A stretch of 64,000 nucleotides of DNA from an archaeon (GCA_028279705.1 JANQNF010000005.1:2688-66687), one strand, 5' to 3'. Positions 15,083 to 34,236 are shown, counted from the first letter of the stretch. Translations and numbers: made by a program. The notes: generated by a model not told the origin, from the sequence alone.

Positions 15083-15102
15083 TTAACACTGAGGAAATAA
15101 AT

Positions 15103-17342: not shown

Positions 17343-17356
17343 AAATGTCGCACCTG
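17343..17356 (+). promoter_or_regulatory. Copy of the recurring 14-bp motif AAAT(G/A)TCGCACCTG
   Basis: aaatgtcgcacctg, followed by cgcgtttttcagac. Confidence 0.45.
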
Positions 17357-17472
17357 TATCGCGTTTTTCAGACCCGGCTGGTTATACCCCCCTGCCAAAA
17401 ACGCGAGCCACGTGCGACCCTCCGAGGCCGTGCCGCAACCCCTGTCAGCCAGCCAAAACGGGGGCAATATGG

Positions 17473-17485
17473 CCAACCCGCCAAA
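17473..17485 (+). promoter_or_regulatory. Copy of the recurring motif AAATATCGCACCT
   Basis: aaatatcgcacct, followed ~50 nt later by cgcatttttcagaaac (parallel to the first copy). Confidence 0.45.
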
Positions 17486-17640
17486 TATCGCACCTAACGC
17501 TCGCCCCAATTGGCCGATACCTAGTACGCATTTTTCAGAAACGCGATACACGGCCGATGCTGGCCTGCTAATTTCCGATATTTGCATTTAACCCCGTAAT
17601 ACAGGCCAACCAGCCAAAAGCCTAATGGAAGGAAGGAACC

Positions 17641-17931
17641 ATGGAAAGTAGGAAACCCCCTCAGTATGCAGACGTCGTGGAAGATCGACACTTCCAACAT
17701 AAGGGAGTACGGGTGCACGAACTGGTTGTAAACAACTGGTTCAATACTGGTACGTGTATGGTGATCTGGGCTCGTGAGGAGTTTACGCTTACGGAAGTAG
17801 AGCTTCCTGATGGGTCGGTGGTTCCAAACCCTGTAGCGTATAAAGAAATGCTTCTTCCTATGGGAGAACATTCGTTAGAGTTCGCTAAGAATCGTGTGAT
17901 GAATGCTTTCGATGACCATTGGAATCTGTAA
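17641..17931 (+). CDS. Hypothetical protein
   Basis: RBS AAGGAAGG then ATG 17641. 96 aa. Confidence 0.45.
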   Translation: MESRKPPQYADVVEDRHFQHKGVRVHELVVNNWFNTGTCMVIWAREEFTLTEVELPDGSVVPNPVAYKEMLLPMGEHSLEFAKNRVMNAFDDHWNL

Positions 17932-18131
17932 TGAAAAGGTTTGTCCTACAACACAGATACCAAGACGAAGGTTGGCAACGGTTGAACGGGGAAGAGTATG
18001 ATGAGGAAGCTGAAGCCATACTGGTAGCTGCTCAACTCAGTTGTGATGCTATCTGTTACGGAATGGTAAGAGTCGTGGATACTAAACTTCAACAAGTAGT
18101 AACAACATTTAGCGCAGGAGTGTCAGAATGA
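17931..18131 (+). CDS. Hypothetical small protein
   Basis: ATGA overlap with the upstream stop. MKRFVLQHRYQDEGWQ... Confidence 0.4.
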   Translation: MKRFVLQHRYQDEGWQRLNGEEYDEEAEAILVAAQLSCDAICYGMVRVVDTKLQQVVTTFSAGVSE

Positions 18132-18493
18132 ATTTTGAAGCCCATGTACAGAAGCTAAGACAGGATGCTGCCAAGCAGTTCCGTATGACCTACGGTATGA
18201 ACCTTGAGCAGTGGAATACCATGACCTGGGACGAGTGGCACAAGATCCCTGTCTTTGAGGCTATGCGCCTAGTTCCTCTGGGAGGTAGAATCAGGTTCAT
18301 GAATACTGAGTTGGAAGAATTGTCCTACAGCTATGCTGTGGCCAAGGGTGGAGTATTATTGGGGGTAGATATAGAAGCCCGACCAGACCACCTGTTCAGT
18401 GGAGCAGTCAGGGCAAGTGAAGGTGACGTTGATGATGCGGCACGGGAAGCCATAACGACCCTTATAGAACTCGCATACCTACGAGGTAAATAG
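18128..18493 (+). CDS. Hypothetical protein
   Basis: 121 aa; ATGA overlap. Confidence 0.5.
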   Translation: MNFEAHVQKLRQDAAKQFRMTYGMNLEQWNTMTWDEWHKIPVFEAMRLVPLGGRIRFMNTELEELSYSYAVAKGGVLLGVDIEARPDHLFSGAVRASEGDVDDAAREAITTLIELAYLRGK

Positions 18494-18494
18494 A

Positions 18495-18722
18495 ATGAAG
18501 TTAAAGAACCCAATAGGTTCCTTGAGGGATACTGAAGATGTTGTTGGTTATATGAGAGGGTTGAGGGACTTGGCTGTTAACATGACCGACAAAGCAGGTA
18601 TCACTATGGATAATGAAGCAGCAAATCAGAAACAGATTGAATGTGGAATCTGTCATTATTTAGATATCATCGCTGTAGGGATGATCACGATAGTAGAAAA
18701 TCTACCTGAGAAGAAGTCCTAA
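18495..18722 (+). CDS. Hypothetical small protein
   Basis: 75 aa; last gene of the rightward block. Confidence 0.45.
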   Translation: MKLKNPIGSLRDTEDVVGYMRGLRDLAVNMTDKAGITMDNEAANQKQIECGICHYLDIIAVGMITIVENLPEKKS

Positions 18723-18723
18723 A

Positions 18724-18741
18724 GGGGGTATAAATACCCCC
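18724..18741. terminator. Hairpin between convergent gene blocks (candidate bidirectional terminator)
   Basis: GGGGGTA TAAA TACCCCC lies between the 18722 stop (+) and the 18759 stop (-). Confidence 0.45.
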
Positions 18742-18758
18742 TCTAGGAATGGCGTGGG

Positions 18759-19154
18759 TTAGGATTGGCTAGGAGCAGGTTCCGGCGTTTCCGGTTGTGT
18801 CTCCTCCGGTTCGTACTTGGTCAGTTTGGAAAGATCAAACCCTGTGACCATAACAGCATTGTCAGGGATGCCATCCCATTCCAATGGTTGATCAACATTG
18901 TAATAAACTTCACCACCAACCTTAGCCATGTGCTGGTTCTTGCACAGCGCTAACGCTCCGCCTTCACCATCGATGGCTTCTTGGAGCGTCTTGAATCCTT
19001 CTGTGTGGTGCCCTTTGCTTTTCCAGCGCTCGGCATCACCTAGCTGGCCAGACGGGGGCGGTGCTTCCCAAAGCAAGATGGGATGGTACGTATCCTGTGC
19101 TTCATTGTGAAGTATTAGGATAACCGGGTTGTAAGGAATTGTCGGTACTATCAT
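18759..19154 (-). CDS. Hypothetical protein
   Basis: 131 aa; end of the leftward block. Confidence 0.5.
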   Translation of the reverse strand: MIVPTIPYNPVILILHNEAQDTYHPILLWEAPPPSGQLGDAERWKSKGHHTEGFKTLQEAIDGEGGALALCKNQHMAKVGGEVYYNVDQPLEWDGIPDNAVMVTGFDLSKLTKYEPEETQPETPEPAPSQS

Positions 19155-19423
19155 TTCAAATCCTTTGCTCTATAAACTTTGCCTTTGATTTCCAACCGTA
19201 CGATAGCCCGAAGGTTCACGTTACGGTACTCTTGGAGGTCTGTATCCCATACGGTTAACAGATCCTTATCTTCAGGATCATAGGGCTGTCCTTGCCCTGT
19301 GACCCCTTCCTTAACACCAAGCTGGCATGACATCCGTCTAAGCCTCCCGTTGGTGCGTTTTCTAAACGTACATACGAAAGGCTCATTACCAGCTTCCTTC
19401 CTGATAAATTCACCTACGTTCAT
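19151..19423 (-). CDS. Hypothetical protein
   Basis: 90 aa; ATGA overlap. Confidence 0.5.
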   Translation of the reverse strand: MNVGEFIRKEAGNEPFVCTFRKRTNGRLRRMSCQLGVKEGVTGQGQPYDPEDKDLLTVWDTDLQEYRNVNLRAIVRLEIKGKVYRAKDLK

Positions 19424-19425
19424 TT

Positions 19426-19884
19426 CTACCCCTTCGTGTACGAAACTGTATTAGAATAGAAATCCTCACTCCACTCCCAAACGTCGCGGACGAAACATTG
19501 GAATTCTGCAAAAGTCAAAGTCATCGTTTCCTCGACTTCCCACTGGGCGATGTCGATTGCCGCGTCGTACTCCTTGGAGTAGTTCCTCGGAACTGGTAAG
19601 TGGATCACTTCGGATTGGATCAACTCAATATAGTCTGAAGTTTTACTCTCCGGATCAAAGTCCTCGAGGTCGAGTTGAACTTTTTGGAAATTCTTCTCCA
19701 TACGGGCAAGAGCTGTCTCCTTGGCTTTCTGGAGTTTCGCCAATGCCTGTTCCTGGTATCCAGCAAGAGCTTCCTCATACTGCTGAATATGTTTCTCCCG
19801 GTTAGACTTCAATGTTTCGAGAAGCCGCTCTCGGTCAACTTTGACTTCACGTTTTTTCTGGTCTTGTCGTGCTTGGTTAGCCAT
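19426..19884 (-). CDS. Hypothetical coiled-coil protein
   Basis: 152 aa; charged, heptad-rich N-terminus. Confidence 0.5.
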   Translation of the reverse strand: MANQARQDQKKREVKVDRERLLETLKSNREKHIQQYEEALAGYQEQALAKLQKAKETALARMEKNFQKVQLDLEDFDPESKTSDYIELIQSEVIHLPVPRNYSKEYDAAIDIAQWEVEETMTLTFAEFQCFVRDVWEWSEDFYSNTVSYTKG

Positions 19885-19896
19885 CTAAATTCTCCT

Positions 19897-20097
19897 TTAT
19901 CCATTGTATAGTTCTTCCAGCCTTGCTTCAATCAGCTTGGCTAACTTGGTTTGTAGGGCAGCATCCTTAGTATCGCCGTCCCGGTGAGCAAGACCAGCCA
20001 GTTCATAGGCTTGATCCCGCTTACGTCTTAGGCGAACTACGTTGGTTGAGTTCTTAATTTGTTCCTCGTCCATACTACCTCCAAATATTACCATCAA
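19897..20097 (-). CDS. Hypothetical small protein
   Basis: 66 aa. Confidence 0.4.
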   Translation of the reverse strand: MMVIFGGSMDEEQIKNSTNVVRLRRKRDQAYELAGLAHRDGDTKDAALQTKLAKLIEARLEELYNG

Positions 20098-20422
20098 GGA
20101 TTTGATTAATTGTTACCGACGGGGCTTCCATTAACTCCATTGTATGACTGGCCAGACTGCCGTCATTGACAATAGAGCTAATGAACTGGGAAAATGAGGT
20201 TTCACCCCCTGCTGTAGCATCCTTGAACTTCTCGTGTAAGTCTTCCAGGATCTCAGCCCAATTAGCAGTGTCCTCGTCATCAAACTCCTTACCACCGTTA
20301 GTCACAAACTTATTTACTTCTTGCACCATTGTTTGTCTTTCCATTACCGTTGTGTTGTGGATTTGTTTTGTTAGACCGAACCGGTCTGTGTGCTGGCCGA
20401 CGTCACGTTCCGCCTGGGACAT
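20075..20422 (-). CDS. Hypothetical protein
   Basis: 115 aa. Confidence 0.45.
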   Translation of the reverse strand: MSQAERDVGQHTDRFGLTKQIHNTTVMERQTMVQEVNKFVTNGGKEFDDEDTANWAEILEDLHEKFKDATAGGETSFSQFISSIVNDGSLASHTMELMEAPSVTINQILDGNIWR

Positions 20423-20675
20423 GGCCTGCTCGTTGTATCTGCTGCTCCGCCAGTACCTCCACTAAGGCGTTGGCTCCTGCCCAAAAACAATTCCATAGGA
20501 CTTCCTTGCCCTCATCGTCAAGGTACGTCAGCCCCTCATCCTTCAGGTACTGCTCGAAGAATGGGCGCAGGTTCCCGCTACCCGTCTTCGGTGGTTGGGG
20601 TTGTTGATTCTTCATTTTCTTTCTCGCTTTCTTGCTGGTCCCGCATCTCCGATTGAACATTTGTAAACTCCTCAA
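20403..20675 (-). CDS. Hypothetical protein (start uncertain; alternative ATG at 20615)
   Basis: 90-aa ORF; overlaps the upstream ORF in another frame. Confidence 0.35.
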   Translation of the reverse strand: MRSLQMFNRRCGTSKKARKKMKNQQPQPPKTGSGNLRPFFEQYLKDEGLTYLDDEGKEVLWNCFWAGANALVEVLAEQQIQRAGHVPGGT

Positions 20676-20859
20676 TTGAACGTTGAACTTTGGCTCTACA
20701 AGCAGCTTCGTATAAGGTCTTACCTAGTACCTCACCAACGAACCCTCGCGAAGCATCAAAGTCAAGCTTATCAGTTAATACGAAGTCAGAGATTATGAGG
20801 CTGAAGTCCCCTTTGTACTTTCTTCGTAACTCTTCTCCACCAATAGTAGACATGGTCAC
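20578..20859 (-). CDS. Hypothetical acidic protein
   Basis: 93 aa. Confidence 0.4.
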   Translation of the reverse strand: MTMSTIGGEELRRKYKGDFSLIISDFVLTDKLDFDASRGFVGEVLGKTLYEAACRAKVQRSIEEFTNVQSEMRDQQESEKENEESTTPTTEDG

Positions 20860-21065
20860 CTCGGTCTCTTGGGTATAGCGTCTTCCTTAGGATAGACCCC
20901 ATACTTTGCGTAAAACTTCTTTCTGTACTTGTCCCTCCACTCTTCGTCTGTTTCCTTGGCATCGTTTTCTTCCATCCTACGCATACCCATAACAGTACCG
21001 TAGACAACACCACAGAAAACACAGAAGAAGAGGAATACACCAATTACCATATACACCAGGAACAT
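20856..21065 (-). CDS. Hypothetical small membrane protein
   Basis: FLVYMVIGVFLFFCVFCGVVYGTV is a single TM segment. ATGA overlap. Confidence 0.4.
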   Translation of the reverse strand: MFLVYMVIGVFLFFCVFCGVVYGTVMGMRRMEENDAKETDEEWRDKYRKKFYAKYGVYPKEDAIPKRPR

Positions 21066-21110
21066 TGTTATCTCCTCATGTAACTGACCAGCATAGCGGT
21101 GAAGATAATA

Positions 21111-21653
21111 CTACCCCCCGCTAGGATCAGAAGTACCAGAACGATCATCTTCAGTTCTCCCACTTAATTCGCCGACAACAAGATCCCACAGAGTGGTATC
21201 CCACTCATCCATGACATCATGGGCCAGATCGTTAAGCAGCTTTCCGCGCTGCTCACGGTCCGGGTGTTCTACATTGTTGGCAACGTTGTTGATACACAGT
21301 TGCAGTTCCTTACTCGGTGTCCAAGGACGTTTGAGGCTTTGCTTGATATCAAACTCCTGCACAATTAACATCACCATCGTCTGATAGGTGATCTCAATAC
21401 GCTCGTCAAGCCATGCCCAACGTTTCGCCTGTTTAACCAGAGCCTGTAGGAACTCCGTTTCGGCAGTTTCTTCAATGTAACCTAATAGCTTATCGAAGAT
21501 ACCAGCGACATCCCTGTCGTTAAGTAACTGATCCCACTCCTTAGGATCATCCACAAAGCTGGCCAACCATTCGGCGACCAGCTCACTTTCGGGGTTGTGG
21601 CCTTGAGCAGGACCACAACTAGGACAGTTCGTATCTCCACACATGCAAGGCAT
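21111..21653 (-). CDS. Hypothetical protein with N-terminal Cys cluster
   Basis: MPCMCGDTNCPSCGP. ATG at 21653 is preferred over the GTG at 21656. Confidence 0.5.
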   Translation of the reverse strand: MPCMCGDTNCPSCGPAQGHNPESELVAEWLASFVDDPKEWDQLLNDRDVAGIFDKLLGYIEETAETEFLQALVKQAKRWAWLDERIEITYQTMVMLIVQEFDIKQSLKRPWTPSKELQLCINNVANNVEHPDREQRGKLLNDLAHDVMDEWDTTLWDLVVGELSGRTEDDRSGTSDPSGG

Positions 21654-21656
21654 CAC

Positions 21657-21826
21657 TCATCCTCCTGTACTGTTTGAAACTCAGCAACCAACCGATTGCA
21701 CTCAGGTAGGAAACAGAATAGCTTCAGTATCCCACCCTCATGCATCTCGGCACGTAACGGAGCAGATGTGTGGCAGACTGACCTGAGATGTGCAGGAAAG
21801 TCACCACACAGTTCACAACCATCCAT
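21657..21826 (-). CDS. Small Cys-rich (zinc-ribbon-like) protein, absent from the ORF track
   Basis: 56-aa ORF MDGCELCGD...CFLPEC. Its ATG overlaps the upstream TGA (ATGA). RBS AGGAGG of the next gene lies at its 3' end. Confidence 0.35.
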
Positions 21827-22140
21827 CAATTGAACTCCTTCATGTCAATGGCTGACCCGTCAAAGTCGCTATCAACCTCAAGCAACTTGTGGGTCAAGCC
21901 TGCTATGAAACGGAGGCCAGCGTCAGTGATCTTTTGTGGACCAATGTGGGAAACCAGGACCGATGCTACAAACGATTCCAACAGCAGCATCTGTTCACCT
22001 AGTTCCCAGTCCTTGAACTCACCTTGCCGAACCTCATCAAGCCATGCCCTAACCTTGGGGATCAGGAACTCGTTGGCTTGCCGTGATCTTTCTTTACCTA
22101 TGCTTCCGTCTCTTTCCATTATTCTTCTCCTTTCGACCAA
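21826..22140 (-). CDS. Hypothetical protein
   Basis: 104 aa. Confidence 0.45.
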   Translation of the reverse strand: MVERRRIMERDGSIGKERSRQANEFLIPKVRAWLDEVRQGEFKDWELGEQMLLLESFVASVLVSHIGPQKITDAGLRFIAGLTHKLLEVDSDFDGSAIDMKEFN

Positions 22141-22934
22141 GTTGCTTCGTAGTCTTCTTCAGTGATACGCATGTTCTCGATGACCTCACCGTCCATCCAA
22201 GCATTCCAGGACTTCAGGAACCAATAGATCATTGTTGTAGATGTTACCTTCTCCTTAGCATTCTTGTTCTTAATCAATCTTTCACGGAGAAGGTAAATAG
22301 GTGAAGCTTTCTTCAGGTTGTCCCCCTTCAGTACTCCATGGTAAAACTCGTCAGCGAAGTCCCTGTCAATTCTTCGGCAGATAAGATACATACCTGCCAT
22401 GAGGCCTGGAGGACCCACTGAATTGTTAGCACACGCTGATGCTACAAACTTGACATCGCTCTTCATACGTCGGTACACCTTCAGTCCTTCAGTCAAGGAA
22501 ACCTTCTGTCTGCTGGCTTCCCCGGTTGCACCTTTGTGATACCGTGAATAGTTGTTCACCGCAGCAGCAGCGATAGCCCAATTAGAAACACCTTCAATGG
22601 CCAAGGCATCGGCAAGTGTTCTTCCCTTACCTTGGTCTAGTGAACGGAACGCATCAGGGTGAACGTTGTAGGCTGTGAAGAACGTCAACGGCTTACCAAG
22701 GGCAATCAGCATACCTAGTCGGTGCTGACCATCCACCAAGTTCCCTTCAGCATCAAACTTGAGGGTATCCCCATTGTCTTCTACCCACTCACCAGCACGG
22801 TAGTCTTTCACCAACGTAATAACCCATTTCTCCTTATAGGGTCGATTACAGTGATTGCGGTTGGCGAGGATATCCTTTGCCTCGCTTACGGTGTAGCGAA
22901 CTTTCTTCGCGTTGAGTTTACTACTCATCTTCAA
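22119..22934 (-). CDS. ParB/sulfiredoxin-superfamily protein with DGQHR motif (DndB-like / ParB-like nuclease domain)
   Basis: The LVDGQHRLGMLIA motif is characteristic of DGQHR/ParB-N-terminal domain proteins. 271 aa. Confidence 0.55.
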   Translation of the reverse strand: MKMSSKLNAKKVRYTVSEAKDILANRNHCNRPYKEKWVITLVKDYRAGEWVEDNGDTLKFDAEGNLVDGQHRLGMLIALGKPLTFFTAYNVHPDAFRSLDQGKGRTLADALAIEGVSNWAIAAAAVNNYSRYHKGATGEASRQKVSLTEGLKVYRRMKSDVKFVASACANNSVGPPGLMAGMYLICRRIDRDFADEFYHGVLKGDNLKKASPIYLLRERLIKNKNAKEKVTSTTMIYWFLKSWNAWMDGEVIENMRITEEDYEATWSKGEE

Positions 22935-23340
22935 ACCTCATAAGAGTAACGATTTCGTTTTCAACAATGGACCCCCAACCAAGCTTCTTAATAGAAACCA
23001 GTTCGTGAGCCCGAGCAACCCACTGTCCGTGTCCTTGAACAGCAGCGTCTCGGTTTTCGTAGCGTTGAACAGGATGAGCACCCTGCTTATCCACAATTGC
23101 AGTTTCGTACCCAACGTCGCTTGTAAGAACTGTTGAGACAACCAACCCTGAGGTAACGTCCTTCCCAACAACTTCCTTAGGACCCTGCAACATACGTTCC
23201 GATGTGTCTAGTAGCATCTCTAGACCCTCTTCAAACACAGTCCTATGCTCCTCTTCTGTTAGGTTTTCCTTTTTAGCTAGGTTCCCGTAGCTTTCTTCAT
23301 CCTTACGTTTACCTGACATAGACAAGCTCCTGTATTGCAC
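22921..23340 (-). CDS. Hypothetical protein
   Basis: 139 aa; acidic N-terminus. Confidence 0.45.
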   Translation of the reverse strand: MQYRSLSMSGKRKDEESYGNLAKKENLTEEEHRTVFEEGLEMLLDTSERMLQGPKEVVGKDVTSGLVVSTVLTSDVGYETAIVDKQGAHPVQRYENRDAAVQGHGQWVARAHELVSIKKLGWGSIVENEIVTLMRFEDE

Positions 23341-27721: not shown

Positions 27722-28005
27722 CGAGCTCCTGTAGCAAGCTTGGCAATCTCTGGGATAGATACCAATAGGTAATCAAGCGTGAAGAACAAGGCAACAGGTT
27801 CCCAGATTTCCTGTTGTGTTTCGACCAGGACTTCATAACCCTTGGCCGGTTTCCTACGTTCTACACGCACGGTCAACCCCAACAACTCTTCAAGGCTGTT
27901 GTGGTCGGGGGTCATTTCGTTAAGGATAACCAGTTCATCACTGGTCATGCTCTCGGGTGCCAACCCCAATACATGGCACACTTTTTCAAGGTCACCGACG
28001 TACAT
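27718..28005 (-). CDS. Hypothetical protein
   Basis: 95 aa. Confidence 0.45.
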   Translation of the reverse strand: MYVGDLEKVCHVLGLAPESMTSDELVILNEMTPDHNSLEELLGLTVRVERRKPAKGYEVLVETQQEIWEPVALFFTLDYLLVSIPEIAKLATGAR

Positions 28006-28007
28006 AG

Positions 28008-28253
28008 TCAGTCCCTCCTAAAATGGTTGTTGATCCAATACAAACCGAACACCAACAGGAGTATTGAGAATACAGCGTATGTCATTACATTCCCAATCTC
28101 CTGCGATGTCCAGTACTCAGCCAGCAGTATTCTCATCATCCCTTTCCTCCTTTTCTGGACACAACACCTGTACGAACAACAACAAGCACAAACATTGTAG
28201 GAACAACACGCTTGGTTCCCACGGCTCATGGGTCCAGGACCTAATTGTTCCAA
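28008..28253 (-). CDS. Hypothetical small membrane protein with Cys-rich N-terminus
   Basis: CCSYNVCACCCSYRCC, then the TM segment YAVFSILLLVFGLYWI. Confidence 0.4.
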   Translation of the reverse strand: MEQLGPGPMSRGNQACCSYNVCACCCSYRCCVQKRRKGMMRILLAEYWTSQEIGNVMTYAVFSILLLVFGLYWINNHFRRD

Positions 28254-28324
28254 TTAGAAAGTATGCGACTGCGCAGCTATTAACAAGTAGTTTACCTCCC
28301 ATATCAAACCACGCCTTCAATTCA

Positions 28325-28636
28325 TCATTCACTTAATTCCTCCTGTGCTTCTGTTGCTAGTTCCGTAATGGTCTTTACAAAACTGTTAACCAGATGTATC
28401 CTCTCCAAAAGAGGGATACCACATTTACCGAACCAGTCGTACATCTGTTGGCCCAACTCAGAGTCAAGCAGATTGAACATTCCGAAATGAACATCATGCT
28501 CCTGCATCTGGTTCTTACCGCTAGCTTCCACCTCAGACTTGACCTCGCCTATGTCCAGCAGGTTGCATCGGTGCTCAATAGGGTTGATTGATATGGCTAC
28601 CCATATCTCCGTAGGTTCAGGTCTGTTAGCTACCAT
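28325..28636 (-). CDS. Hypothetical protein
   Basis: 103 aa. Confidence 0.45.
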   Translation of the reverse strand: MVANRPEPTEIWVAISINPIEHRCNLLDIGEVKSEVEASGKNQMQEHDVHFGMFNLLDSELGQQMYDWFGKCGIPLLERIHLVNSFVKTITELATEAQEELSE

Positions 28637-29432
28637 CCGTTACTCCTTCCAATTTACGCCTCAATATATGAAGCTCGTGCTGTATGCTCTCACGGTCCTC
28701 AGCGTGCAGGTTAGGATCCCGCAGCTCACTGAGCATACTTTCCATTTCCTGGTGACCGTCGCACTTCCTACGTGCTGTACCGCGGATCACCTTACCATCG
28801 ATTCCGTTCTCACTACAAACACCGCACACCTTTCCATCGCTGTGTGACGTCATTCCACAATACGCACAATCCCTGTGCTTCTTAGGAAGTACACAACCAC
28901 AAGGAGCCTTCTCCTTTGCTAAGGCTTTCTTCTCCTCTTGGTCAGCAATCCATTCCGCCTGACGCTTGGACTCACCATCCACCAACGTTCGGCCACTCGG
29001 CTTATGATATACCTCCCAGGAATACAGGTCGTCGCCGTATCCTCTTCGTACACCATAATGCTTCCTTACTGGTTTACGTGGTTTCCTGTTCTTGCTAACG
29101 CGCCCTAGCCTTGGTCGTGCCAGCGCTGCCTCCTTACGTGTCTTACAAGGACCAGCCACAACTTCCCACAACAAGCCTTTCCGCTTGTCCTTGGGATCAC
29201 GCTTGGTTCCTGCAATCTTGTACCACTCTCCGCGCTTGCCAGCAATACGGCACATCATCTTCATACGGGGTCGGCCTGCAAGGTGCGATACCACGTAGTA
29301 GCCGATTACCCTATACACATCATACACGTTGACAAACCGCCGGTCACTCTTGCTGATGCTCTTCGCCCTGTGAGGCTGTAAGAACTTCAGTTCAATCTTC
29401 TTGTGTGGTAGTAACGTCATGGCCCACCTCAT
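28626..29432 (-). CDS. Arg/Lys-rich protein with C-terminal multi-Cys zinc-binding region; possible degenerate GIY-YIG-like nuclease
   Basis: NVYDVYRVIGYYVV...R...E is reminiscent of the GIY-(10)-YIG..R..E layout. C-terminal CGC...C..C...CGVC...C..H cluster. Confidence 0.4.
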   Translation of the reverse strand: MRWAMTLLPHKKIELKFLQPHRAKSISKSDRRFVNVYDVYRVIGYYVVSHLAGRPRMKMMCRIAGKRGEWYKIAGTKRDPKDKRKGLLWEVVAGPCKTRKEAALARPRLGRVSKNRKPRKPVRKHYGVRRGYGDDLYSWEVYHKPSGRTLVDGESKRQAEWIADQEEKKALAKEKAPCGCVLPKKHRDCAYCGMTSHSDGKVCGVCSENGIDGKVIRGTARRKCDGHQEMESMLSELRDPNLHAEDRESIQHELHILRRKLEGVTDGS

Positions 29433-29772
29433 TACTTACATAGTAAATTCTAGTTTCATCCCAAGTGAATTCAATCCTATATCGGTGCTCGTACATAAAA
29501 CTGAATTCCTGATCACTTATATAAGTGTCCGCACCTTGATGCAACCACCATAAGTTCTTTTCTTTATTCGTATTACTCAACATGCTGATCAAGGCTGTGT
29601 AGTCAATGATCATGTTATCCATGTTTTTCAGACGCTCTTCAGCACCTTCACCCGAACGGTACACATTGAACAACGCTTGCCAGATCTTACGCATACGTTG
29701 TTCAAAGCTTCCATCACGTGTGTGGGAAATGACCAAGTAGATCACCCCCTTCTTAATCGGTTTCATTTTCAT
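29392..29772 (-). CDS. Hypothetical protein
   Basis: 126 aa. Confidence 0.45.
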   Translation of the reverse strand: MKMKPIKKGVIYLVISHTRDGSFEQRMRKIWQALFNVYRSGEGAEERLKNMDNMIIDYTALISMLSNTNKEKNLWWLHQGADTYISDQEFSFMYEHRYRIEFTWDETRIYYVSNEVGHDVTTTQED

Positions 29773-30007
29773 TCCCCCGTAAATGTGCTTGGAGTTCTTC
29801 TACGACCTCAGGTCCAAGGTCGTGAAAGTATAGTTCACACATAATAACCACCAAAGCTTCCAGCTTGGTCTGATCACGTATTAGATCCCTGATGAGATCT
29901 ATTGTTGCTTCGTTGGCCTTCCTCTGTTGGATCCCTTGGTGGACAGTCATCAACTGCTGAGTCATAGGGAACACCAACATAACCAGGATCAATACCCACA
30001 GCATCAC
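29753..30007 (-). CDS. Hypothetical small membrane protein
   Basis: N-terminal TM segment MMLWVLILVMLVFPM. Confidence 0.4.
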   Translation of the reverse strand: MMLWVLILVMLVFPMTQQLMTVHQGIQQRKANEATIDLIRDLIRDQTKLEALVVIMCELYFHDLGPEVVEELQAHLRGNENETD

Positions 30008-30252
30008 ATCACCTCGTGATACATCCAGTAGATGGCTTCTTCAAAATCACGTGCCGTGAACTCCCTACCCGACTCTTTCAAATCAGGGATAAGGGTGTTC
30101 TGTAAGTACGCAATAAACGCCTCCATACTTTCAAACTCAGGCACCCTTAACGGGTCCTCAGCCTCAGCAGCATGGATACTTTCTGCGACCTCGCCAAACG
30201 GCACATCACGCAATTGTTCGCGCTTACGCATTCCACGGTTACTACTCATCAC
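30004..30252 (-). CDS. Hypothetical small protein
   Basis: 82 aa; ATGA overlap. Confidence 0.4.
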   Translation of the reverse strand: MMSSNRGMRKREQLRDVPFGEVAESIHAAEAEDPLRVPEFESMEAFIAYLQNTLIPDLKESGREFTARDFEEAIYWMYHEVM

Positions 30253-30612
30253 TCACTCCGGGATTGGAATAAAGGGGAGCTTCTCGTTGATCAGCAAACA
30301 GATCCTACAATGGGTCATGTTGCACGGTTCATGTAAGGCAGATAGCTCCTTACGAAGGTCACGGATGAGCAGGTACGCTCTCCACAGTATTTCGGCGTCG
30401 GCTAATTCCCCACCCCAAGGAGAAGGAGGATCGGTCTCCCATATAACCTCCTCGTGGCGAGCATCCATCATCCCTAACCAAGCACTCTCATCCCCGTATA
30501 TTTCCTTACATAGGTCTTCAATATTTGTTGACATGTCAGTCCTCAAAGAGTTGGGTGTAGTTGTTGATTTGAGTTGCTGCAACGTGCAGGTTCTCTTCAC
30601 TCCAGTCCGCAC
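30253..30612 (-). CDS. Hypothetical protein
   Basis: 119 aa. Confidence 0.45.
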   Translation of the reverse strand: MRTGVKRTCTLQQLKSTTTPNSLRTDMSTNIEDLCKEIYGDESAWLGMMDARHEEVIWETDPPSPWGGELADAEILWRAYLLIRDLRKELSALHEPCNMTHCRICLLINEKLPFIPIPE

Positions 30613-30907
30613 CTGCCATCAGGTATTGATGCCAGTGTGTTCGGTGAGCCTTCCTCAGCAAATCCCCTTTGCCTTGGAACACGATCCACGCCTTGGTTGC
30701 ACCAACAACGTGGATTTCGTCGGATGGCAAATTCTTCAACTCCTGCACACCCAACGTAGGCATCTGCTCAAGGAACTTTGCCTTGATGGTTTTGACCTGG
30801 ATTAGCTCACGGTCATCCACAGCCGTTACAACACGAACACCGGTTTTGGTTTTGATATCACTACTCATTATCTTCCTCCCAGAAAAGGGTATGGTACTCG
30901 TTTTCAC
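30536..30907 (-). CDS. Hypothetical protein
   Basis: 123 aa; overlaps the downstream gene by 77 nt, so the start may be later. Confidence 0.4.
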   Translation of the reverse strand: MKTSTIPFSGRKIMSSDIKTKTGVRVVTAVDDRELIQVKTIKAKFLEQMPTLGVQELKNLPSDEIHVVGATKAWIVFQGKGDLLRKAHRTHWHQYLMAGADWSEENLHVAATQINNYTQLFED

Positions 30908-30943
30908 TTACGATCGTTTCAATGGGTGCTTTCTGGGGAGAAG

Positions 30944-31276
30944 CTACATGGAGCGTACTTCAGTACTGAACCCCAGTGCCCACATCCCCCGAACAGTAAC
31001 AGGAGGTGAAATCCCGTTGATAAAGATGCCAGCAGCCATTGCGTTAGGGAATTGAATCCCCATTGTGCCCACTTCCCATTCATCCGGCCACTTATCGCCG
31101 TTGAGGTGTATCTCCACCCCATGTGCGTCACACACAATTAACGTCTGCTCATCCACGATACGGAATATAGGGTCGTCTCCATTAGGGAACCTTTCAGCCC
31201 CTTGGAACCCATCCCACATACCATCCGTAAACGGAGTTGCTTCTGCGTGCAAATGATTTCCACTACTCATTTTCAT
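30944..31276 (-). CDS. Hypothetical protein; first gene of the leftward early block
   Basis: 110 aa. RBS GGAAGGAG upstream of the ATG at 31276. Confidence 0.45.
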   Translation of the reverse strand: MKMSSGNHLHAEATPFTDGMWDGFQGAERFPNGDDPIFRIVDEQTLIVCDAHGVEIHLNGDKWPDEWEVGTMGIQFPNAMAAGIFINGISPPVTVRGMWALGFSTEVRSM

Positions 31277-31354
31277 TCTCCTTCCAACACGGAATCTAAA
31301 ACGAAATCAAAACCGAATACAAAAATAAAGTCTTCAACACCAACACGATATTGA

Positions 31355-31402
31355 AAACACAAAATCCAAAATCTTCAATCCAAAAACCCAATTCCAAAAA
31401 TG
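31355..31402. repeat. Phased A-tract repeats (A)ATCCAAAA(A) x3
   Basis: aatccaaaatc / aatccaaaaac / attccaaaaat at ~13-nt phasing, just upstream of the leftward operon. A curved-DNA / UP-element-like region. Confidence 0.5.
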
Positions 31403-31476
31403 ACTTCCGGTGCTCAAAACTGGGTATTCCATTTTCTCAGAGTTCCTCTACCTACCCCTCACAAGGGGGTGTGCAC

Positions 31477-31569
31477 TTCCGCACAGTGCCCTTCCGCACA
31501 CCACCTCATCGGGGGGTGTCAATTCCGCACATGTGCTCCACACGCACACTTCCGTGCCAATACCGCACG
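31477..31569. repeat. Iteron cluster TTCCGCACA x3 plus two variants
   Basis: ttccgcaca at 31477, 31492 and 31523. Variants ttccgtgcc at 31550 and accgcacg at 31562. Confidence 0.5.
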
Positions 31570-31692
31570 TTTCCATTGTGGGCTCCATATTTCCATTTTG
31601 CCGCTATGTGGAAAAATCTGCTCACTATAACTATTCATTTCCAGCGCGCGCCATCCACAAGCGATTTTAGCGGTTAGCAAAGGGAAAACTCC

Positions 31693-31706
31693 ATATATCG
31701 CACCTG
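31693..31706 (+). promoter_or_regulatory. Copy of the 14-bp motif (ATATATCGCACCTG)
   Basis: Matches the copies at 17343 and 17473. Confidence 0.45.
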
Positions 31707-31926
31707 CCGCGCTTTACAGCCAAACGGGGTATATAGCAGGCCAGCCAGTACAGGCCACTAGGGGCGATATTTGCCCTGCCAGCGACCGGGCTGTTGGCCA
31801 GCCACTAGGCCAGCACAGCCAGCCAGCGCAACCCCTAGCAGGTTGCCAGCGTAATATCGTACAGGCTTGCGCACAGTCGCACAGCTATCGCGTTTTTTGC
31901 GCCCCTGTACTTTGTATCGGCTGGCC

Positions 31927-31951
31927 AAAAATCGCACCACGTGCGATATTT
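31927..31951. promoter_or_regulatory. Inverted pair of the 14-bp motif (aaaatcgcacc-acgt-gcgatattt)
   Basis: The two half-sites are reverse complements. A degenerate minus-oriented copy lies at 31764-31775. Confidence 0.45.
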
Positions 31952-31978
31952 GCTGGCCTGTTGCCAGCGCATAAAAAT

Positions 31979-31997
31979 AGCCCGGTAAAACCGGGCT
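31979..31997 (-). terminator. Rho-independent terminator for the 32021..32323 gene (possibly bidirectional)
   Basis: AGCCCGG-tAAAA-CCGGGCT stem-loop. On the minus strand it is followed by a UUUUUA run. 23 nt downstream of the gene. Confidence 0.6.
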
Positions 31998-32020
31998 AAT
32001 GGGCTATTTTTCGTTTTTTC

Positions 32021-32323
32021 CTATTTTCCACAATTGGGGCAAGCGCTTTGGCACCCGGTTTGCAAGGGCAATTCCACGCGCCCACAATGCGGGCAAAGGT
32101 TTTCCAACCAGCCTGTTAGGCTGGCCAATGTGTTAGCCTGTTTGGCTTGCCGTGCTGTTAGGCCAGTACGCAATTCCATAGCCTGTAGGCTTGCGCTATA
32201 CCCGTTAAGCATTTCCAGCAAGTTTTCCAACGCGCTGTACTGGTTGGGGGGTGCTACTTGGTTTTCAATAGCGCCTAGCAATACCTGTGCAAAGTGCTTT
32301 GCAATGTTATTGGTGTTGGCCAT
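32021..32323 (-). CDS. Small protein with C-terminal zinc ribbon (CPHCG...CPNCG)
   Basis: ATG at 32323 (MANTNNIAKHF); a longer alternative start exists at 32374. Has its own terminator. Located in the control region. Confidence 0.5.
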   Translation of the reverse strand: MANTNNIAKHFAQVLLGAIENQVAPPNQYSALENLLEMLNGYSASLQAMELRTGLTARQAKQANTLASLTGWLENLCPHCGRVELPLQTGCQSACPNCGK

Positions 32324-32417
32324 GTTTTGCCCTTGTGTTAGGGGGTGTTGTGGTTGCCTGTTACGTACATACATTTTAGCAACCTGTTAGCCCCTTGCAA
32401 GGCCAGCCAACACGTAA

Positions 32418-32434
32418 TTTCCACTTTGTGGAAA
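32418..32434. promoter_or_regulatory. Perfect palindrome TTTCCAC-TTT-GTGGAAA (candidate operator)
   Basis: 17-bp perfect inverted repeat. Related TGGAAA/TTTCCA sites recur across 31570-31620 and 33614-34520. Confidence 0.5.
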
Positions 32435-32497
32435 ATAGTTGGCTACTAGCATTTTCCATACCAATAGCAAACAATTTTCAACAAAGCACATAAAAAT

Positions 32498-32520
32498 AGC
32501 CCGGTTTTCCTAACCGGGCT
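32498..32520 (-). terminator. Rho-independent terminator for the 32547..32873 gene (bidirectional shape)
   Basis: AGCCCGG-ttttcctaa-CCGGGCT, flanked by ataaaaat and gttttgg. Confidence 0.6.
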
Positions 32521-32546
32521 GTTTTGGTTAATTGGTTGGCTGGCTA

Positions 32547-32873
32547 CTAGCTTTCCTCGCCACCGCGTAAATCGTACCCGCCGTTTTTGTTGGCATGGGC
32601 AATGGTTTTCCGCCCTTGTGGCGTAATGCTGTAGTAGGTTGGGCTGTCCGCACCGCTTTCCAATTCGTATGCGGCGTCCGCCATATTGCCCAATTCCACT
32701 TCCTCGTCGCAAGTTGGCTTGCAACCGTGGCTTAGGTTAATGCCATCGCGTATTTCGCTGGCAGTGCTTTCGCCGTTTTTGGCCACAAATTCCAAAATAC
32801 GCAAGCGTACGGTTTTGGCCTTGGCCTTGGGTGCGGTGGACTTTTTGGCGGTTTTGCTTTTTGCTGTTTTGGC
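32547..32873 (-). CDS. Lys/Ala-rich (histone H1-like tail) winged-helix DNA-binding protein
   Basis: RBS GAGGAG 7 nt before ATG 32873. N-terminus AKTAKSKTAKKSTAPKAKAK, then RLRILEFVAKNGESTASEIRDGI...YYSITPQGRKTI (wHTH-like). Confidence 0.6.
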   Translation of the reverse strand, partial: AKTAKSKTAKKSTAPKAKAKTVRLRILEFVAKNGESTASEIRDGINLSHGCKPTCDEEVELGNMADAAYELESGADSPTYYSITPQGRKTIAHANKNGGYDLRGGEES

Positions 32874-33117
32874 CATTGTTTGGCTCCTCAATAAAACAGG
32901 TGTAACGGGTTGGCCTTTTGCGGCCTAGCTGCCAACAACGTGTTGGCCACTGTTAACCAATATAGGATAAAAACGGCTGTAGGCAATAGCAGGCTACACC
33001 CATTTATCCATTTTTGCCAAAGTATTTTGGATAGCTGGACCTAAGTGCTGTTATAGCAATAGGTTAGGCGCATAGATTATTTTTGCCCTGTACTGGCCAG
33101 CCAGCCAATTTCTACCA

Positions 33118-33344
33118 CTAGCAGGGGGTGTGTAAGCACCGCAAGCCAGCGCTAGCCAGTGGATTTTGATAGGATTTTTCCTTACTGTTAGTAGTTTGGA
33201 AATTGTTATAGTAGGTTTCCAGCGCAGTAAATTCCTGCTCCAGCACCCAACCAAGCGCGTTATTTTCTTTTCCATAACTACGGGTTGCAACTACGGTCCA
33301 TCCATTACGCGCTGTTATGCGTACACCTTTTTCACTAGTGGCCA
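33118..33344 (-). CDS. Hypothetical small protein (weak)
   Basis: 75-aa ORF from the MATSEKGVRITARNGW ATG; weak RBS; within the non-coding-rich control region. Confidence 0.25.
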
Positions 33345-34153
33345 TTTGTACACCTATACCCAACACGGGCGCTAAAGGTTTATCCAACACGGAAAACAAA
33401 CGTTAGCGCGCTAATGCCATTGCAACTATACAAACGTACACTAGCGCGTTGAACAATTGTTTTCACAAACTGTTAACCACCGCTACACTTTGCCGCACAC
33501 ATACCCGCGCTCATTGTATTGTTAGTTGGCAGTGCGCTCCATACTGGTTTTGCGCGTAGCACTTGTGTTCCATTTTACCCGGCAAAACACGGGGTAAAAT
33601 CAACACCAATTAAGTATGGAAAACATAGCGGTTAGGTTACTTAACCACAAACAACAGTACGCATTGAAAACCGTTTGGCCAAACAAGCGTAGGCCAGCAC
33701 TGTTCCCGCAGTGCGCGTAACGGTTGCGCTGTTGTTAATGGGTTGCAATGTTCCTGTGCCATTGCTCCGCATAGTAGGTTGTGTGTTACCTGTTCGCTAT
33801 GCGTTAAGCACCTACACTGTAAGCGGGTATTGAAACCAACTAACCGTATGCAACATGGTTTTCAATAACCACTGGTTGCAACTAAAGCTTTACTGGCTGT
33901 TTTACGCTTTCCACGTGTAGCCTGTATACCAACACCAACACGGCGCAGCATACGTTTCCCCGTATAGCCACGGGGTAGGGTTAGTAGGTTGCCAAAGAGC
34001 AGCATAACATTATAGGTATAACACCCCCTATAGCAAGGCCAGCACGGCAATATAGCAAGCCAGTACAATATCGGATAAAAGGGGCCAAATATCGGATTTA
34101 AGCTACTTTAGCGGCAAATACGGGGTTACCACGGCTTTTTGGTTAGCACGCAC

Positions 34154-34168
34154 CAGGTGCGATATTTA
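34154..34168 (-). promoter_or_regulatory. Minus-oriented copy of the 14-bp motif (rc: TAAATATCGCACCTG)
   Basis: caggtgcgatattta. Confidence 0.45.
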
Positions 34169-34190
34169 CCCCCTTGTTGTCGGTTTTGCC

Positions 34191-34236
34191 TGTATATGTA
34201 TATATAATATATATTTACCATTAAATCCGCTAACCG
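34191..34236. promoter_or_regulatory. AT-rich element (candidate DNA-unwinding element)
   Basis: tgtatatgtatatataatatatatttaccattaaat; about 85 percent AT, against ~48 percent for the window. Confidence 0.4.

What the first reader, a model, noticed from the sequence alone, without database searches (positions are those of the whole stretch)
17343..34168. Conserved 14-bp motif AAATATCGCACCTG confined to the two non-coding regions
Copies lie at 17343, 17473, 31693, 31764 (degenerate, minus), 31927/31941 (an inverted pair forming a palindrome around ACGT) and 34154 (minus). Orientation matches the direction of downstream genes in several cases. This fits a phage-specific promoter or the operator of a phage regulator. 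The inverted pair suggests dimer binding.
Basis: seen in the sequence. Interest (0 to 1): 0.6.

Follow-up and report, generated by a model that had tools for sequence, protein, structure and literature searches.

The report
Phage regulatory DNA-binding sites, paired
A short DNA word repeated seven times, only in the gene-free control regions of an uncultivated 75-kb phage, is most likely the docking site of a DNA-binding regulator; this is an ordinary kind of feature, and its one unusual trait is that the sites sit in mirror-image pairs about 55 bp apart.

Summary
AAATATCGCAC(CTG) occurs at 17343+, 17483+, 31693+, 31759-, 31927+, 31938- and 34154-. With up to 2 mismatches there are 6 matches against 0.39 expected. 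I rebuilt the complete 74,782-bp circular genome. All seven strong sites lie in three non-coding stretches and none in coding DNA. Conservation is sharply bounded (ggcCAAATATCGCACCTg).

New anatomy: only 31927-31951 is a true palindrome. The other sites are strong half-sites arranged as convergent pairs. Each has a partner 54-56 bp away: A1 17355/17410, B1 31705/31760 and C1 34099/34155 are supported, and A2 17495/17549 is weak. A conserved central GGGGT(A/T)TA lies between the partners.

I found no phage RNA polymerase or sigma factor, two sites point straight into a terminator, and the 40-kb structural region has none. A promoter reading is therefore unlikely. Operator-like binding sites for a sequence-specific protein, controlling three transcription units, is the best reading (about 0.5).

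The binder is unidentified. A PadR-like winged-helix gene sits between the site clusters. Its close homologue in a related phage comes without this motif. No related phage shares the motif, so conservation across phages could not be tested.

Verdict: a real but ordinary cis-regulatory motif, a new member of a known kind.

The parts
17343..17356 (+). Site 1, AAATGTCGCACCTG; left arm of composite A1
17409..17422 (-). Weak partner site GAGGGTCGCACGTG; right arm of composite A1. Dyad centres 17355/17410 are 55 bp apart. It also forms a 22-nt inverted repeat with 17347-17368.
17483..17496 (+). Site 2, AAATATCGCACCTA; left arm of composite A2
17548..17563 (-). Degenerate partner of site 2 (CACGGCCGATGCTGG), about 54 bp from its centre. 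A further degenerate copy AAATATCGGAA lies at 17573-17583 (minus).
31693..31706 (+). Site 3, ATATATCGCACCTG; left arm of composite B1
31726..31736 (.). Central element GGGGTATATAG, exactly midway between sites 3 and 4. Counterparts are GGTTATAC at 17380-17387 and GGGGTTAC at 34122-34129.
31759..31772 (-). Site 4, AAATATCGCCCCTA; right arm of composite B1 (centres 31705/31760, 55 bp apart)
31927..31951 (.). Sites 5 and 6: the only full 25-bp palindrome, AAAAATCGCAC-CAC-GTGCGATATTT, lying about 15 bp from the terminator-like hairpin (31966-32000)
34087..34097 (+). Degenerate site AAATATCGGAT; left arm of composite C1. A second degenerate copy lies at 34066-34076.
34143..34167 (-). Site 7, the exact 14-mer at 34154-34167, with a partial dyad CGCAC-CAG-GTGCG; right arm of composite C1 (centres 34099/34155, 56 bp apart)
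34184..34223 (.). (TA)-rich stretch, tied for the most AT-rich 40 bp of the genome (GC 0.17), 17 bp from site 7. It contains the promoter-like TTGCCT-N18-TATATT.
32547..32876 (-). Candidate (unproven) binder: 109-aa protein with a Lys/Ala-rich tail and a PadR/MarR-like winged helix, encoded between site clusters B and C
32021..32374 (-). Small gene with a C-terminal CxxC...CxxC zinc ribbon, its own promoter-like site and a terminator; second candidate regulator in the island
15055..15552 (+). Protein with an N-terminal ribbon-helix-helix (Pfam HicB, E 5e-6); third candidate DNA binder, 1.8 kb upstream of region A
17200..17266 (+). About 65-bp module, TTCCGGTGCTCAA-N10-TCCATTTTCTCWGA-N13-CCCC..GGGGG hairpin, that opens region A. 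Its only other copy opens region B at 31405-31471.

Best explanation
The motif is the recognition sequence of a sequence-specific DNA-binding protein, so the sites are operator-like cis-regulatory sites.

Shown:
- There are seven strong copies of an 11-14-bp half-site (ggcC-AAATATCGCAC-CTG). They lie only in the three non-coding control regions of a 74.8-kb phage.
- One copy pair forms a perfect 25-bp dyad and one forms a partial dyad.
- The rest form convergent pairs whose centres are 54-56 bp apart, around a conserved GGGGT(A/T)TA core.

Inferred:
- A dimeric or cooperatively binding protein occupies the dyad and bridges the paired sites. That geometry would need the intervening DNA to bend or loop.
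- In doing so it controls three units: (i) the four small genes from 17641; (ii) the 12.5-kb leftward replication/helicase operon that starts at 31276 and has no good sigma70-type promoter of its own; (iii) the divergent promoters around 34.0-34.2 kb.
- At 34.1 kb the pair sits exactly between two outward-facing sigma70-like promoters (34036 minus, 34186 plus), at upstream rather than overlapping positions. Activation or architectural control is therefore at least as likely as simple steric repression.

The binder is not identified. Candidates are the PadR-like winged-helix protein (32547-32876), the zinc-ribbon protein (32021-32374) and the RHH protein (15055-15552).
For: - Non-random frequency and strict restriction to non-coding DNA across the whole genome. 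Seven of seven sites fall in the 8.8% of the genome that is non-coding.
- Information content drops to background within 4 nt on the 5' side. On the 3' side only a weak GC(g), a degenerate second half-site, persists. This is selection on the word itself, not decay of a duplication.
- Dyad at 31927-31951 and partial dyad at 34143-34167.
- Partner-site scores peak uniquely at an offset of 55-56 bp. Partner scores are 17.0/17.0, 9.4 and 2.9, where the per-position chance of such scores is 1.5e-4 and 1.4e-3 for the last two. The four composites align end to end.
- The B and C clusters, 2.2 kb apart, flank an island of three small, separately promoted and terminated genes. One of these is a confidently modelled PadR/MarR-like dimeric winged helix: pLDDT 80, Foldseek hits to PadR Rv3488, AspA and MarR.
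- No sigma or RNA polymerase gene was found (Pfam lists).
- RNA-hairpin stability is not conserved among the composites: z = -4.5, -1.6, -0.6 and -2.3. Sequence is conserved where pairing is impossible, which points to DNA-protein recognition.
Against: - There is no experimental or comparative support. The nearest relatives (75% TerL identity, 48% helicase identity) lack the motif. It is absent as a palindrome from IMG/VR and occurs at chance level in 185,579 genomes.
- Only one of six sites is a real dyad, which is unusual for a classical dimeric repressor.
- No strong site overlaps a good sigma70-like -35/-10 pair.
- The best candidate binder has a 47%-identical homologue with a near-identical recognition helix in the related phage, which has no such sites in the 33 kb examined. 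Another homologue sits inside a thymidine-hypermodification cluster. This suggests a general DNA-binding role for that protein.
- The 55-bp spacing (5.2 helical turns) does not put the two sites on the same face of the helix.
Confidence: 0.5

Rival explanations
1. The sites are replication-origin or other non-transcriptional assembly sites. An initiator (or terminase or partition protein) binds the half-sites. The paired sites with a bendable centre nucleate a wrapped complex next to an AT-rich unwinding element.
For: - Site 7 lies 17 bp from a stretch tied for the most AT-rich 40 bp in the genome.
- The cumulative GC-skew minimum is at about 34 kb.
- The region holds many other short repeat families: TATGGAA x11, TTCCGCACA x3, CCAACACG x7.
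- Inverted sites about 50 bp apart around a bend site recall lambda cosB R3-I1-R2 (my own knowledge).
- Single sites plus one inverted repeat recall iteron/operator duality in Rep plasmids (my own knowledge).
Against: - The sites are dispersed over 17 kb in three loci, not in a tandem array at about 22-bp spacing.
- The GC-skew turn coincides with the switch of gene strand, so it is confounded.
- No initiator, ParB or adjacent terminase gene was found; TerL is 5 kb away.
- A cos or pac site would be a single locus.
Confidence: 0.17
2. The motif is a promoter core. One version is a phage-specific promoter read in the forward sense. The other reads the reverse complement as an extended -10 promoter (caGG-TG-c-GATATT-tGGcc) for the host sigma70-type polymerase.
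For: - Five of seven sites point at downstream genes in the forward sense.
- The reverse complement matches TGnTATAAT at TG plus 4 of 6 positions, with the key A-11 and T-7.
- The degenerate copy at 34087 has lost the TG but has a TTGCCG -35 placed 18 nt upstream.
- The leftward operon from 31276 has no other recognisable promoter.
Against: - No phage sigma or RNA polymerase was found.
- The motif is absent from all other operon starts and from the 40-kb late region.
- Conservation covers 16-17 contiguous bases, including positions a -10 element does not need.
- In the extended -10 sense, both strong sites of region A fire away from the genes and into terminator-like hairpins (17311-17324). 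In the forward sense, 31927+ fires into a terminator.
- No -10-like element lies at a fixed distance downstream of the forward motif.
Confidence: 0.12
3. The roughly 85-bp composites are copies of a small inverted-repeat element (MITE-like or REP-like), or remnants of duplicated regulatory cassettes. The 14-mer is then its terminal inverted repeat, with no dedicated binding factor today.
For: - Four units of about 80-85 bp are bounded by inverted 14-16-bp termini.
- Regions A and B share a further 65-bp module found nowhere else.
- An extended 31-nt version of the motif occurs three or four times.
Against: - The interiors of the units are almost unrelated while the termini are about 90% conserved. 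This is the opposite of recent transposition or neutral decay.
- There are no target-site duplications, no transposase and no copies in any other sequence collection.
Confidence: 0.1
4. The motif is an RNA-level signal. The inverted copies pair in the leader transcripts to form processing sites (RNase III-type), antitermination signals or sRNA hairpins.
For: - Region B folds far better than shuffles on both strands (z = -4.7 and -5.0).
- Composite A1 forms a 22-bp stem (z = -4.5).
- Boxed CGCG(C)TTT(A) stretches follow several sites.
Against: - Stability is not conserved in B1, A2 or C1.
- The sequence is conserved where the partner cannot pair.
- The elements are symmetric and occur in both orientations.
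- There is no Rfam match.
Confidence: 0.06
5. The motif is a host alternative-sigma promoter. Read in reverse it is either sigma54 (GG-N10-GC) or sigma28/SigD (-10 GCCGATAT).
For: - The reverse complement CAGGTGCGATATTTGC places GG and GC 12 nt apart, as in TGGCACG-N4-TTGC.
- The degenerate copies read TCCGATAT, a 7 of 8 match to GCCGATAT.
The two consensus sequences are from my own knowledge.
Against: - The invariant -12 GC is present in only 2 of 7 sites and the -24 GG is missing in one.
- The 'spacer' CGATAT is the best-conserved part.
- No TAAA -35 lies at the required 15 nt.
- No enhancer-binding protein is encoded.
Confidence: 0.03

Closest known systems
Lambda-type immunity region (OL and OR operator clusters, 2.4 kb apart, flanking cI/rex; CI octamer loop)
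   Same: Two site clusters 2.2 kb apart (31.7-31.95 kb and 34.1 kb) flank small regulator-like genes and lie at the heads of divergent operons. The sites are about 17-25 bp with dyad character. Paired sites suggest cooperative or looped binding.
   Different: - Only one site is a true dyad.
- The sites are not tandem triplets overlapping -35/-10 elements.
- A third cluster lies 14 kb away.
- No integrase or lysogeny genes were found, and the phage carries thymidine-hypermodification genes typical of lytic phages.
- There is no sequence or protein homology to CI or Cro.
pLS20 Rco switch: two operator clusters bridged by DNA looping between overlapping divergent promoters (PMC4207663)
   Same: Multiple copies of a short asymmetric motif occur in two nearby clusters between divergent promoters. 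Regulation there depends on spacing and looping.
   Different: - It is a different host range and a plasmid, not a phage.
- The motif and spacing differ.
- Binding and looping are demonstrated for pLS20 and only inferred here.
Lambda cosB (gpNu1 sites R3 and R2 in inverted orientation around the IHF site I1)
   Same: Two inverted sites of about 16 bp lie roughly 50 bp apart with a conserved central element that could be a bend site. gpNu1 is a winged-helix protein, like the candidate here.
   Different: cosB is a single locus next to the terminase genes. Here there are four composites at three loci, 5-22 kb from TerL, and no IHF consensus (WATCAANNNNTTR) in the centre.
T4 MotA boxes and T7-type phage promoters
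   Same: A phage-specific conserved word confined to intergenic DNA ahead of some operons.
   Different: - No cognate activator, sigma or polymerase gene was found.
- There is no fixed -10 partner.
- Both orientations occur, including a palindrome.
- The word is absent from most operon starts.
Iteron plasmids (Rep monomers on iterons, Rep dimers on an inverted-repeat operator)
   Same: Asymmetric single sites coexist with one inverted repeat made of the same word. A winged-helix candidate protein is present. An AT-rich block lies next to one site.
   Different: The sites are not in a tandem array of about 22-bp period, no Rep-like gene was found, and the sites are spread over 17 kb.
Correia/MITE-type small inverted-repeat elements
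   Same: Units of 80-85 bp bounded by 14-16-bp inverted termini in intergenic DNA.
   Different: The interiors are not conserved. There are no target-site duplications, no transposase and no copies outside this genome.

Membership tests
Dimeric-repressor operators (lambda/434/P22 CI-Cro type; PadR/MarR palindromic operators) | Each site has two-fold (dyad) symmetry | tested here: not met
   The dyad PWM scan finds one full dyad (31927-31951, L16.7/R19.2) and one half dyad (34143-34167). The other four sites have second-arm scores of -4.5 to -7. Only a weak nnGCG trace remains there.
Dimeric-repressor operators (lambda/434/P22 CI-Cro type; PadR/MarR palindromic operators) | Sites overlap the -35/-10 of the promoters they control | tested here: inconclusive
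   No strong site overlaps a good sigma70-like promoter. Site 7 lies between two divergent promoter-like sites, at about -67 and beyond -150. One weak leftward candidate would put site 3 at about -41. The host promoter rules are unknown.
Dimeric-repressor operators (lambda/434/P22 CI-Cro type; PadR/MarR palindromic operators) | A cognate DNA-binding protein is encoded in or beside the operator region | tested here: inconclusive
   A PadR-like winged-helix protein is encoded between clusters B and C. Its close homologue in a relative occurs without the motif.
Phage-specific promoters (T7-like single-subunit RNAP; T4 middle/late) | The phage encodes the cognate RNA polymerase, sigma or activator | tested here: not met
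   No RNAP, sigma or MotA-like hit in the PHROGs/Pfam scans of the ORFs submitted or in the precomputed Pfam lists covering most of the genome. Apart from the tape-measure protein, no ORF exceeds about 730 aa.
Phage-specific promoters (T7-like single-subunit RNAP; T4 middle/late) | All copies point in one direction towards genes and are spread over a temporal class of operons | tested here: not met
   Five of seven sites point at genes and two point into a terminator or no gene. There is none in 34.7-74.8 kb or 0-17 kb.
Sigma54-dependent promoters | Near-invariant GG at -24 and GC at -12, with a non-conserved spacer | tested here: not met
   GC at -12 is present in 2 of 7 sites and GG is missing in 31938-. 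The spacer CGATAT is the most conserved part.
Iteron-type replication origin | Tandem direct repeats with a period of about 22 bp beside an AT-rich unwinding element and an initiator gene | tested here: not met
   The sites are convergent pairs 55 bp apart and are dispersed over three loci. An AT-rich block lies next to site 7 only. No initiator gene was recognised.
MITE / Correia-like elements | Terminal inverted repeats together with overall similarity between copies, target-site duplications, and copies elsewhere | tested here: not met
   Inverted termini are present, but the interiors are unrelated. No flanking direct repeats are seen in the sequence. There are no multi-copy hits in IMG/VR or GTDB genomes.
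Known RNA families (Rfam 15) | Match to a covariance model at gathering score | tested here: not met
   No hit at gathering score in the window. Only sub-threshold terminator-like hits in 31-35 kb and none in 17.0-17.8 kb.

The most novel reading that the evidence does not exclude
The unit of function is not the 14-mer but an ~85-bp composite. It consists of two convergent half-sites at a fixed 55-56 bp around a conserved GGGGT(A/T)TA core, present four times. It would be a previously undescribed phage nucleoprotein cassette in which a winged-helix/H1-like protein wraps or hairpins hypermodified DNA. Such a cassette might act as a combined origin and bidirectional-promoter switch. A related phage carries an analogous pair with a different word (TCAGATCGCAT, cores 69 bp apart). 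That would mean the geometry is conserved while the specificity drifts.
Probability: 0.1. Interest if true: 0.55.

Novelty: new member of a known kind. Interest (0 to 1): 0.3.

Why it matters
If correct, the motif marks the control points of an otherwise unannotatable, uncultivated 75-kb phage. Three transcription units, including the helicase/replication operon, would answer to one regulator. The sites give a concrete probe (the 25-bp palindrome) with which to fish out that regulator.

The phage appears to hypermodify its thymidines, and the motif has five to six T·A pairs per half-site. It would therefore be a convenient natural test of how sequence-specific proteins read modified DNA.

Beyond this, it is a routine example of phage cis-regulation and does not open a long-standing question.

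Tried and rejected
Comparative approaches that gave nothing
1. Megablast and blastn of both non-coding regions against 50,697 phage records found no match. Phylogenetic footprinting was therefore impossible.
2. Relatives found through the helicase (L001/L002, 48% identity) and TerL (L017-L021, 54-75% identity) do not carry the motif, nor the large non-coding region.
3. The exact 16-mer in IMG/VR gave 11 single hits. One that I inspected lies inside a 1165-aa ORF, so these are chance.
4. The palindrome ATATCGCAC-N3-GTGCGATAT gave 0 hits in IMG/VR. In GTDB genomes it gave 11 scattered hits against about 9 expected by my estimate, so it is not a host regulon.

RNA checks
5. tRNA and Rfam searches found nothing.
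6. A sliding-window RNA z-score script timed out.

Promoter readings, rejected on sequence (see rival explanations)
7. Sigma54, sigma28/SigD, extended -10, MotA-box-like and SPO1-late-like (GATATT) readings.
8. DnaA boxes (TTWTNCACA): 7 in the genome, 4 of them non-coding, not clustered.
9. The CIRCE, parS, NrdR and LexA consensus sequences, recalled from memory, do not match.

Other ideas considered and dropped
10. Coding explanations: the ORFs across regions A and B have negative codon scores in every frame.
11. The idea that the 14.2-kb block between the two 65-bp direct-repeat modules is an inserted or invertible element: no recombinase was found and the composition is the same.

Candidate binder
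12. Single-sequence AF2 of the winged-helix protein was useless (pLDDT 45). It was repeated successfully with a 25-sequence alignment.
13. Four exact look-ups of window proteins failed or were uninformative.

Full report
**Check of the observation**

The exact 14-mer AAATATCGCACCTG occurs once, at 34154-34167 on the minus strand. With up to 2 mismatches there are six copies against 0.39 expected, and no shuffle out of 100 reached six. The 11-mer AAATATCGCAC with up to 1 mismatch has eight copies against 0.60 expected.

The true positions are 17343+, 17483+, 31693+, 31759-, 31927+, 31938- and 34154-.

The inverted pair is real: AAAAATCGCAC-CAC-GTGCGATATTT at 31927-31951.

**What the window is**

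PHROGs and Pfam annotation shows a tailed phage. It has DNA polymerase A, primase, helicase, large terminase, portal, a tape-measure protein and a DNA methylase.

An exact protein look-up placed the window on a 74,812-bp Logan contig whose ends overlap by 30 bp. From three overlapping loci I rebuilt the 74,782-bp circle.

There is no close relative in 50,697 deposited phages. The nearest TerL in 5.8 billion clusters, apart from the window's own TerL (100%), is 75% identical.

- A PWM scan of the whole circle gives the seven sites (19.8 or more), then a gap to 10.9. Three of the next four hits fall in the same non-coding stretches.
- Non-coding DNA is 8.8% of the genome, and seven of seven strong sites lie in it.
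- ORFs that overlap the sites are not coding by codon usage: -0.16 to -0.21 in frame, against +0.16 to +0.32 for small control genes.
- Conservation is sharply bounded, with mean information 1.06 bits per column over ggcC-AAATATCGCACCTG against 0.35-0.40 in the flanks.

- Only one site is a true dyad. 34143-34167 is a half dyad (CGCAC-CAG-GTGCG). The rest are strong single half-sites followed by a faint nnGCG.
- The sites form convergent pairs. I define each site's centre as the middle base of the 3-nt spacer that follows the 11-nt arm. Partner half-site scores then peak uniquely at an offset of 55-56 bp.
  - A1: 17355/17410.
  - B1: 31705/31760.
  - C1: 34099/34155.
  - A2: 17495/17549, weaker.
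- The four roughly 85-bp units align end to end, with a conserved centre GGGGT(A/T)TA and otherwise unrelated interiors.
- 31927-31951 is the same pair collapsed to zero spacing.
- A longer version of the word occurs three or four times: GGCCAAATGTCGCACCTGTATCGCGTTTTTC. Here TRTCGCR repeats after 11 bp.
- A degenerate sub-family AAATATCGGA has three copies, at 17573-, 34066+ and 34087+.

**Setting**

Genes run rightward from 34.7 kb, around the circle, to 18.7 kb. They run leftward from 31.3 to 18.8 kb.

Between 31.3 and 34.7 kb about 2.9 kb is non-coding. Embedded in it are three small leftward genes with weakly positive codon scores. Two of them have their own sigma70-like promoters and two have near-identical terminators.

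Site clusters B (31.69-31.95 kb) and C (34.07-34.17 kb) flank this island. Cluster A lies in a 441-bp gap just before the last four genes of the rightward replication operon.

Good sigma70-like promoters exist elsewhere, for example TTGCAT-N18-TATAAT at 73.6 kb and TTGCTA-N16-TATAAT at 34036 on the minus strand. None carries the motif. Composite C1 sits exactly between two outward-facing promoter-like sites, 34036 minus and 34186 plus. Site 7 lies 17 bp from a stretch tied for the most AT-rich 40 bp in the genome.

**Mechanism**

The pattern is what a sequence-specific DNA-binding protein's sites look like. The word is sharply bounded, restricted to intergenic DNA and found in both orientations. 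There is one dyad, and there are fixed-geometry pairs at the heads of transcription units.

I take the motif to be an operator-like site set (confidence 0.5). It would control the 17641-18722 genes, the leftward helicase operon and the divergent promoters at 34 kb. The leftward operon has no recognisable sigma70 promoter in 31277-32020. The upstream rather than overlapping positions at 34 kb make activation or architectural action as likely as repression. These functional steps are inference.

**Candidate binders**

- ORF 32547-32876 has a Lys/Ala-rich tail followed by a domain that models confidently (pLDDT 80 with a 25-sequence alignment). The model matches PadR, MarR, AspA and Sso10a winged helices (weak profile hits).
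- Two facts weaken this candidate. Its 47%-identical homologue in the 75%-TerL relative has an almost identical recognition helix, and that phage shows no AAATATCGCAC-like site in the 33 kb examined. A second homologue lies inside a thymidine-hypermodification cluster, which hints at a general DNA-binding role.
- Other candidates are a zinc-ribbon protein and an RHH protein.

**Rivals**

- A promoter reading is weakened on four counts. No polymerase or sigma gene was found. The motif is absent from the late region. Orientation matches downstream genes in only five of seven cases. Two copies aim into a terminator or at no gene.
- The reverse complement does resemble an extended -10 (TGcGATATT). 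In region A, however, those copies would fire away from the genes into hairpins, and conservation extends well beyond what a -10 element needs.
- The sigma54 and sigma28 readings fail on their invariant positions.
- An origin or packaging role cannot be excluded (0.17). The AT-rich block and the GC-skew minimum at 34 kb fit it. The dispersed, non-tandem layout and the confounding with gene strand do not.
- A MITE-like or duplication-remnant reading is contradicted by conserved ends with unconserved interiors and by the absence of copies elsewhere.
- An RNA-structure reading is contradicted by non-conserved stability and by the lack of any Rfam match.

**Comparison with known systems and verdict**

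The layout works most like a lambda-type immunity region, or the pLS20 Rco looping switch (PMC4207663). The pair-plus-centre geometry recalls lambda cosB.

It is not a demonstrable member of any of these families. Dyad symmetry, promoter overlap, tandem iteron structure and the MITE criteria were each tested and either not met or left inconclusive.

It is a real feature of an ordinary kind: a lineage-specific cis-regulatory motif. Its modest twist is the fixed spacing of the pairs. I rate it a new member of a known kind, with interest 0.3.

Noticed in passing
window 4388-11098, plus the genome part missing from the window (L016 1-9853): The phage carries a thymidine-hypermodification gene set: 5-HMUDK (PF18723), a ThyA-like dUMP hydroxymethylase, a SPASM radical-SAM enzyme, a MazG-like pyrophosphatase, a UDG-like protein and a GT2 glycosyltransferase (compare PMC5889632 and PMC8989533). 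Its DNA is therefore probably heavily modified at T, which bears on how any protein reads the T-rich motif.
   Followed up: partly
window 32547-32876 (-); homologues P0127-P0156; L038 2279-2731: This is a small protein family that combines a histone-H1-like Lys/Ala-rich tail with a PadR-like winged helix. There are about 30 remote members, and one sits inside a thymidine-hypermodification cluster. It may be a TF1-like architectural protein for modified phage DNA.
   Followed up: partly
window 1-161 (+), continuing 43 nt upstream of the window: A canonical CsrA homologue of 67 aa (MLVLSRKIGEQIHIGDNIKIVLL...) is encoded by the phage.
   Followed up: partly
window 31277-31700 (minus-strand sense): The presumed leader of the leftward operon carries 12 GGAA on the sense strand against 2.7 expected (GCGGAAG x4, AUGGAAA x3). 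This is a possible CsrA-binding leader or CsrA sponge.
   Followed up: partly
window 34290-34560: There is a dense cluster of TATGGAA(A)/TTCCATA words, 11 hits on both strands in 270 bp. It lies between the AT-rich block and the first rightward gene (34708) and is a second, separate putative binding-site array.
   Followed up: no
window 17200-17266 and 31405-31471: A module of about 65 bp (TTCCGGTGCTCAA-N10-TCCATTTTCTCWGA-N13-CCCC..GGGGG hairpin) occurs exactly twice as direct repeats. The two copies bracket the 14.2-kb segment that holds the genome's main leftward gene block (18759-31276). Its meaning is unknown.
   Followed up: partly
window 31284, 31340, 32407, 33360, 33384, 33935 (+) and 32939 (-): CCAACACG has 7 of its 8 genomic copies in non-coding DNA, and six of those share one orientation. 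On the leftward sense strand it reads CGUGUUGG, just upstream of the ribosome-binding sites of the genes starting at 31276 and 33345.
   Followed up: no
window 31477-31531: Three direct copies of TTCCGCACA, plus degenerate ones, are spaced 15 and 31 bp apart. They share the CGCAC core with the 14-bp motif.
   Followed up: no
window 33906-33920 and 34456-34470: There are two copies of TTTCCACGTGTRG with a CACGTG centre. They are vaguely parS/NBS-like but not palindromic enough to call.
   Followed up: no
window 31966-32000 and 32485-32520: Two near-identical intrinsic terminators (AAAAATAGCCCGG-loop-CCGGGCTATTTTT) end two separate small leftward genes. ACACCCCC-loop-GGGGGTGT hairpins recur at 17311, 31452, 34020 and 18717, and also in the related contig L038.
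   Followed up: partly
L034 7654-7671 (+) and 7723-7740 (-): The 75%-TerL relative has its own convergent pair, TCAGATCGCATYTGARGC. These hold the only two ATCGCA in 12.4 kb. The pair lies in the non-coding gap downstream of its primase operon, with cores 69 bp apart (66 bp in the window) and a GGGGTATCTAAG between them. It is possibly the same architecture with a drifted specificity.
   Followed up: partly
L002 4236-4258 and 4610-4632: A more distant relative (48% helicase identity) has two copies of CTATYTACASTATAGMCTACGAT in its 866-bp divergent non-coding region. They resemble SP6/T7-type promoters (..ACACTATAG..).
   Followed up: no
window 15503-16363 (+): An N6/N4 DNA methyltransferase (PF01555, E 2e-33) is encoded 0.8 kb upstream of region A. 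Its target sequence is unknown.
   Followed up: no
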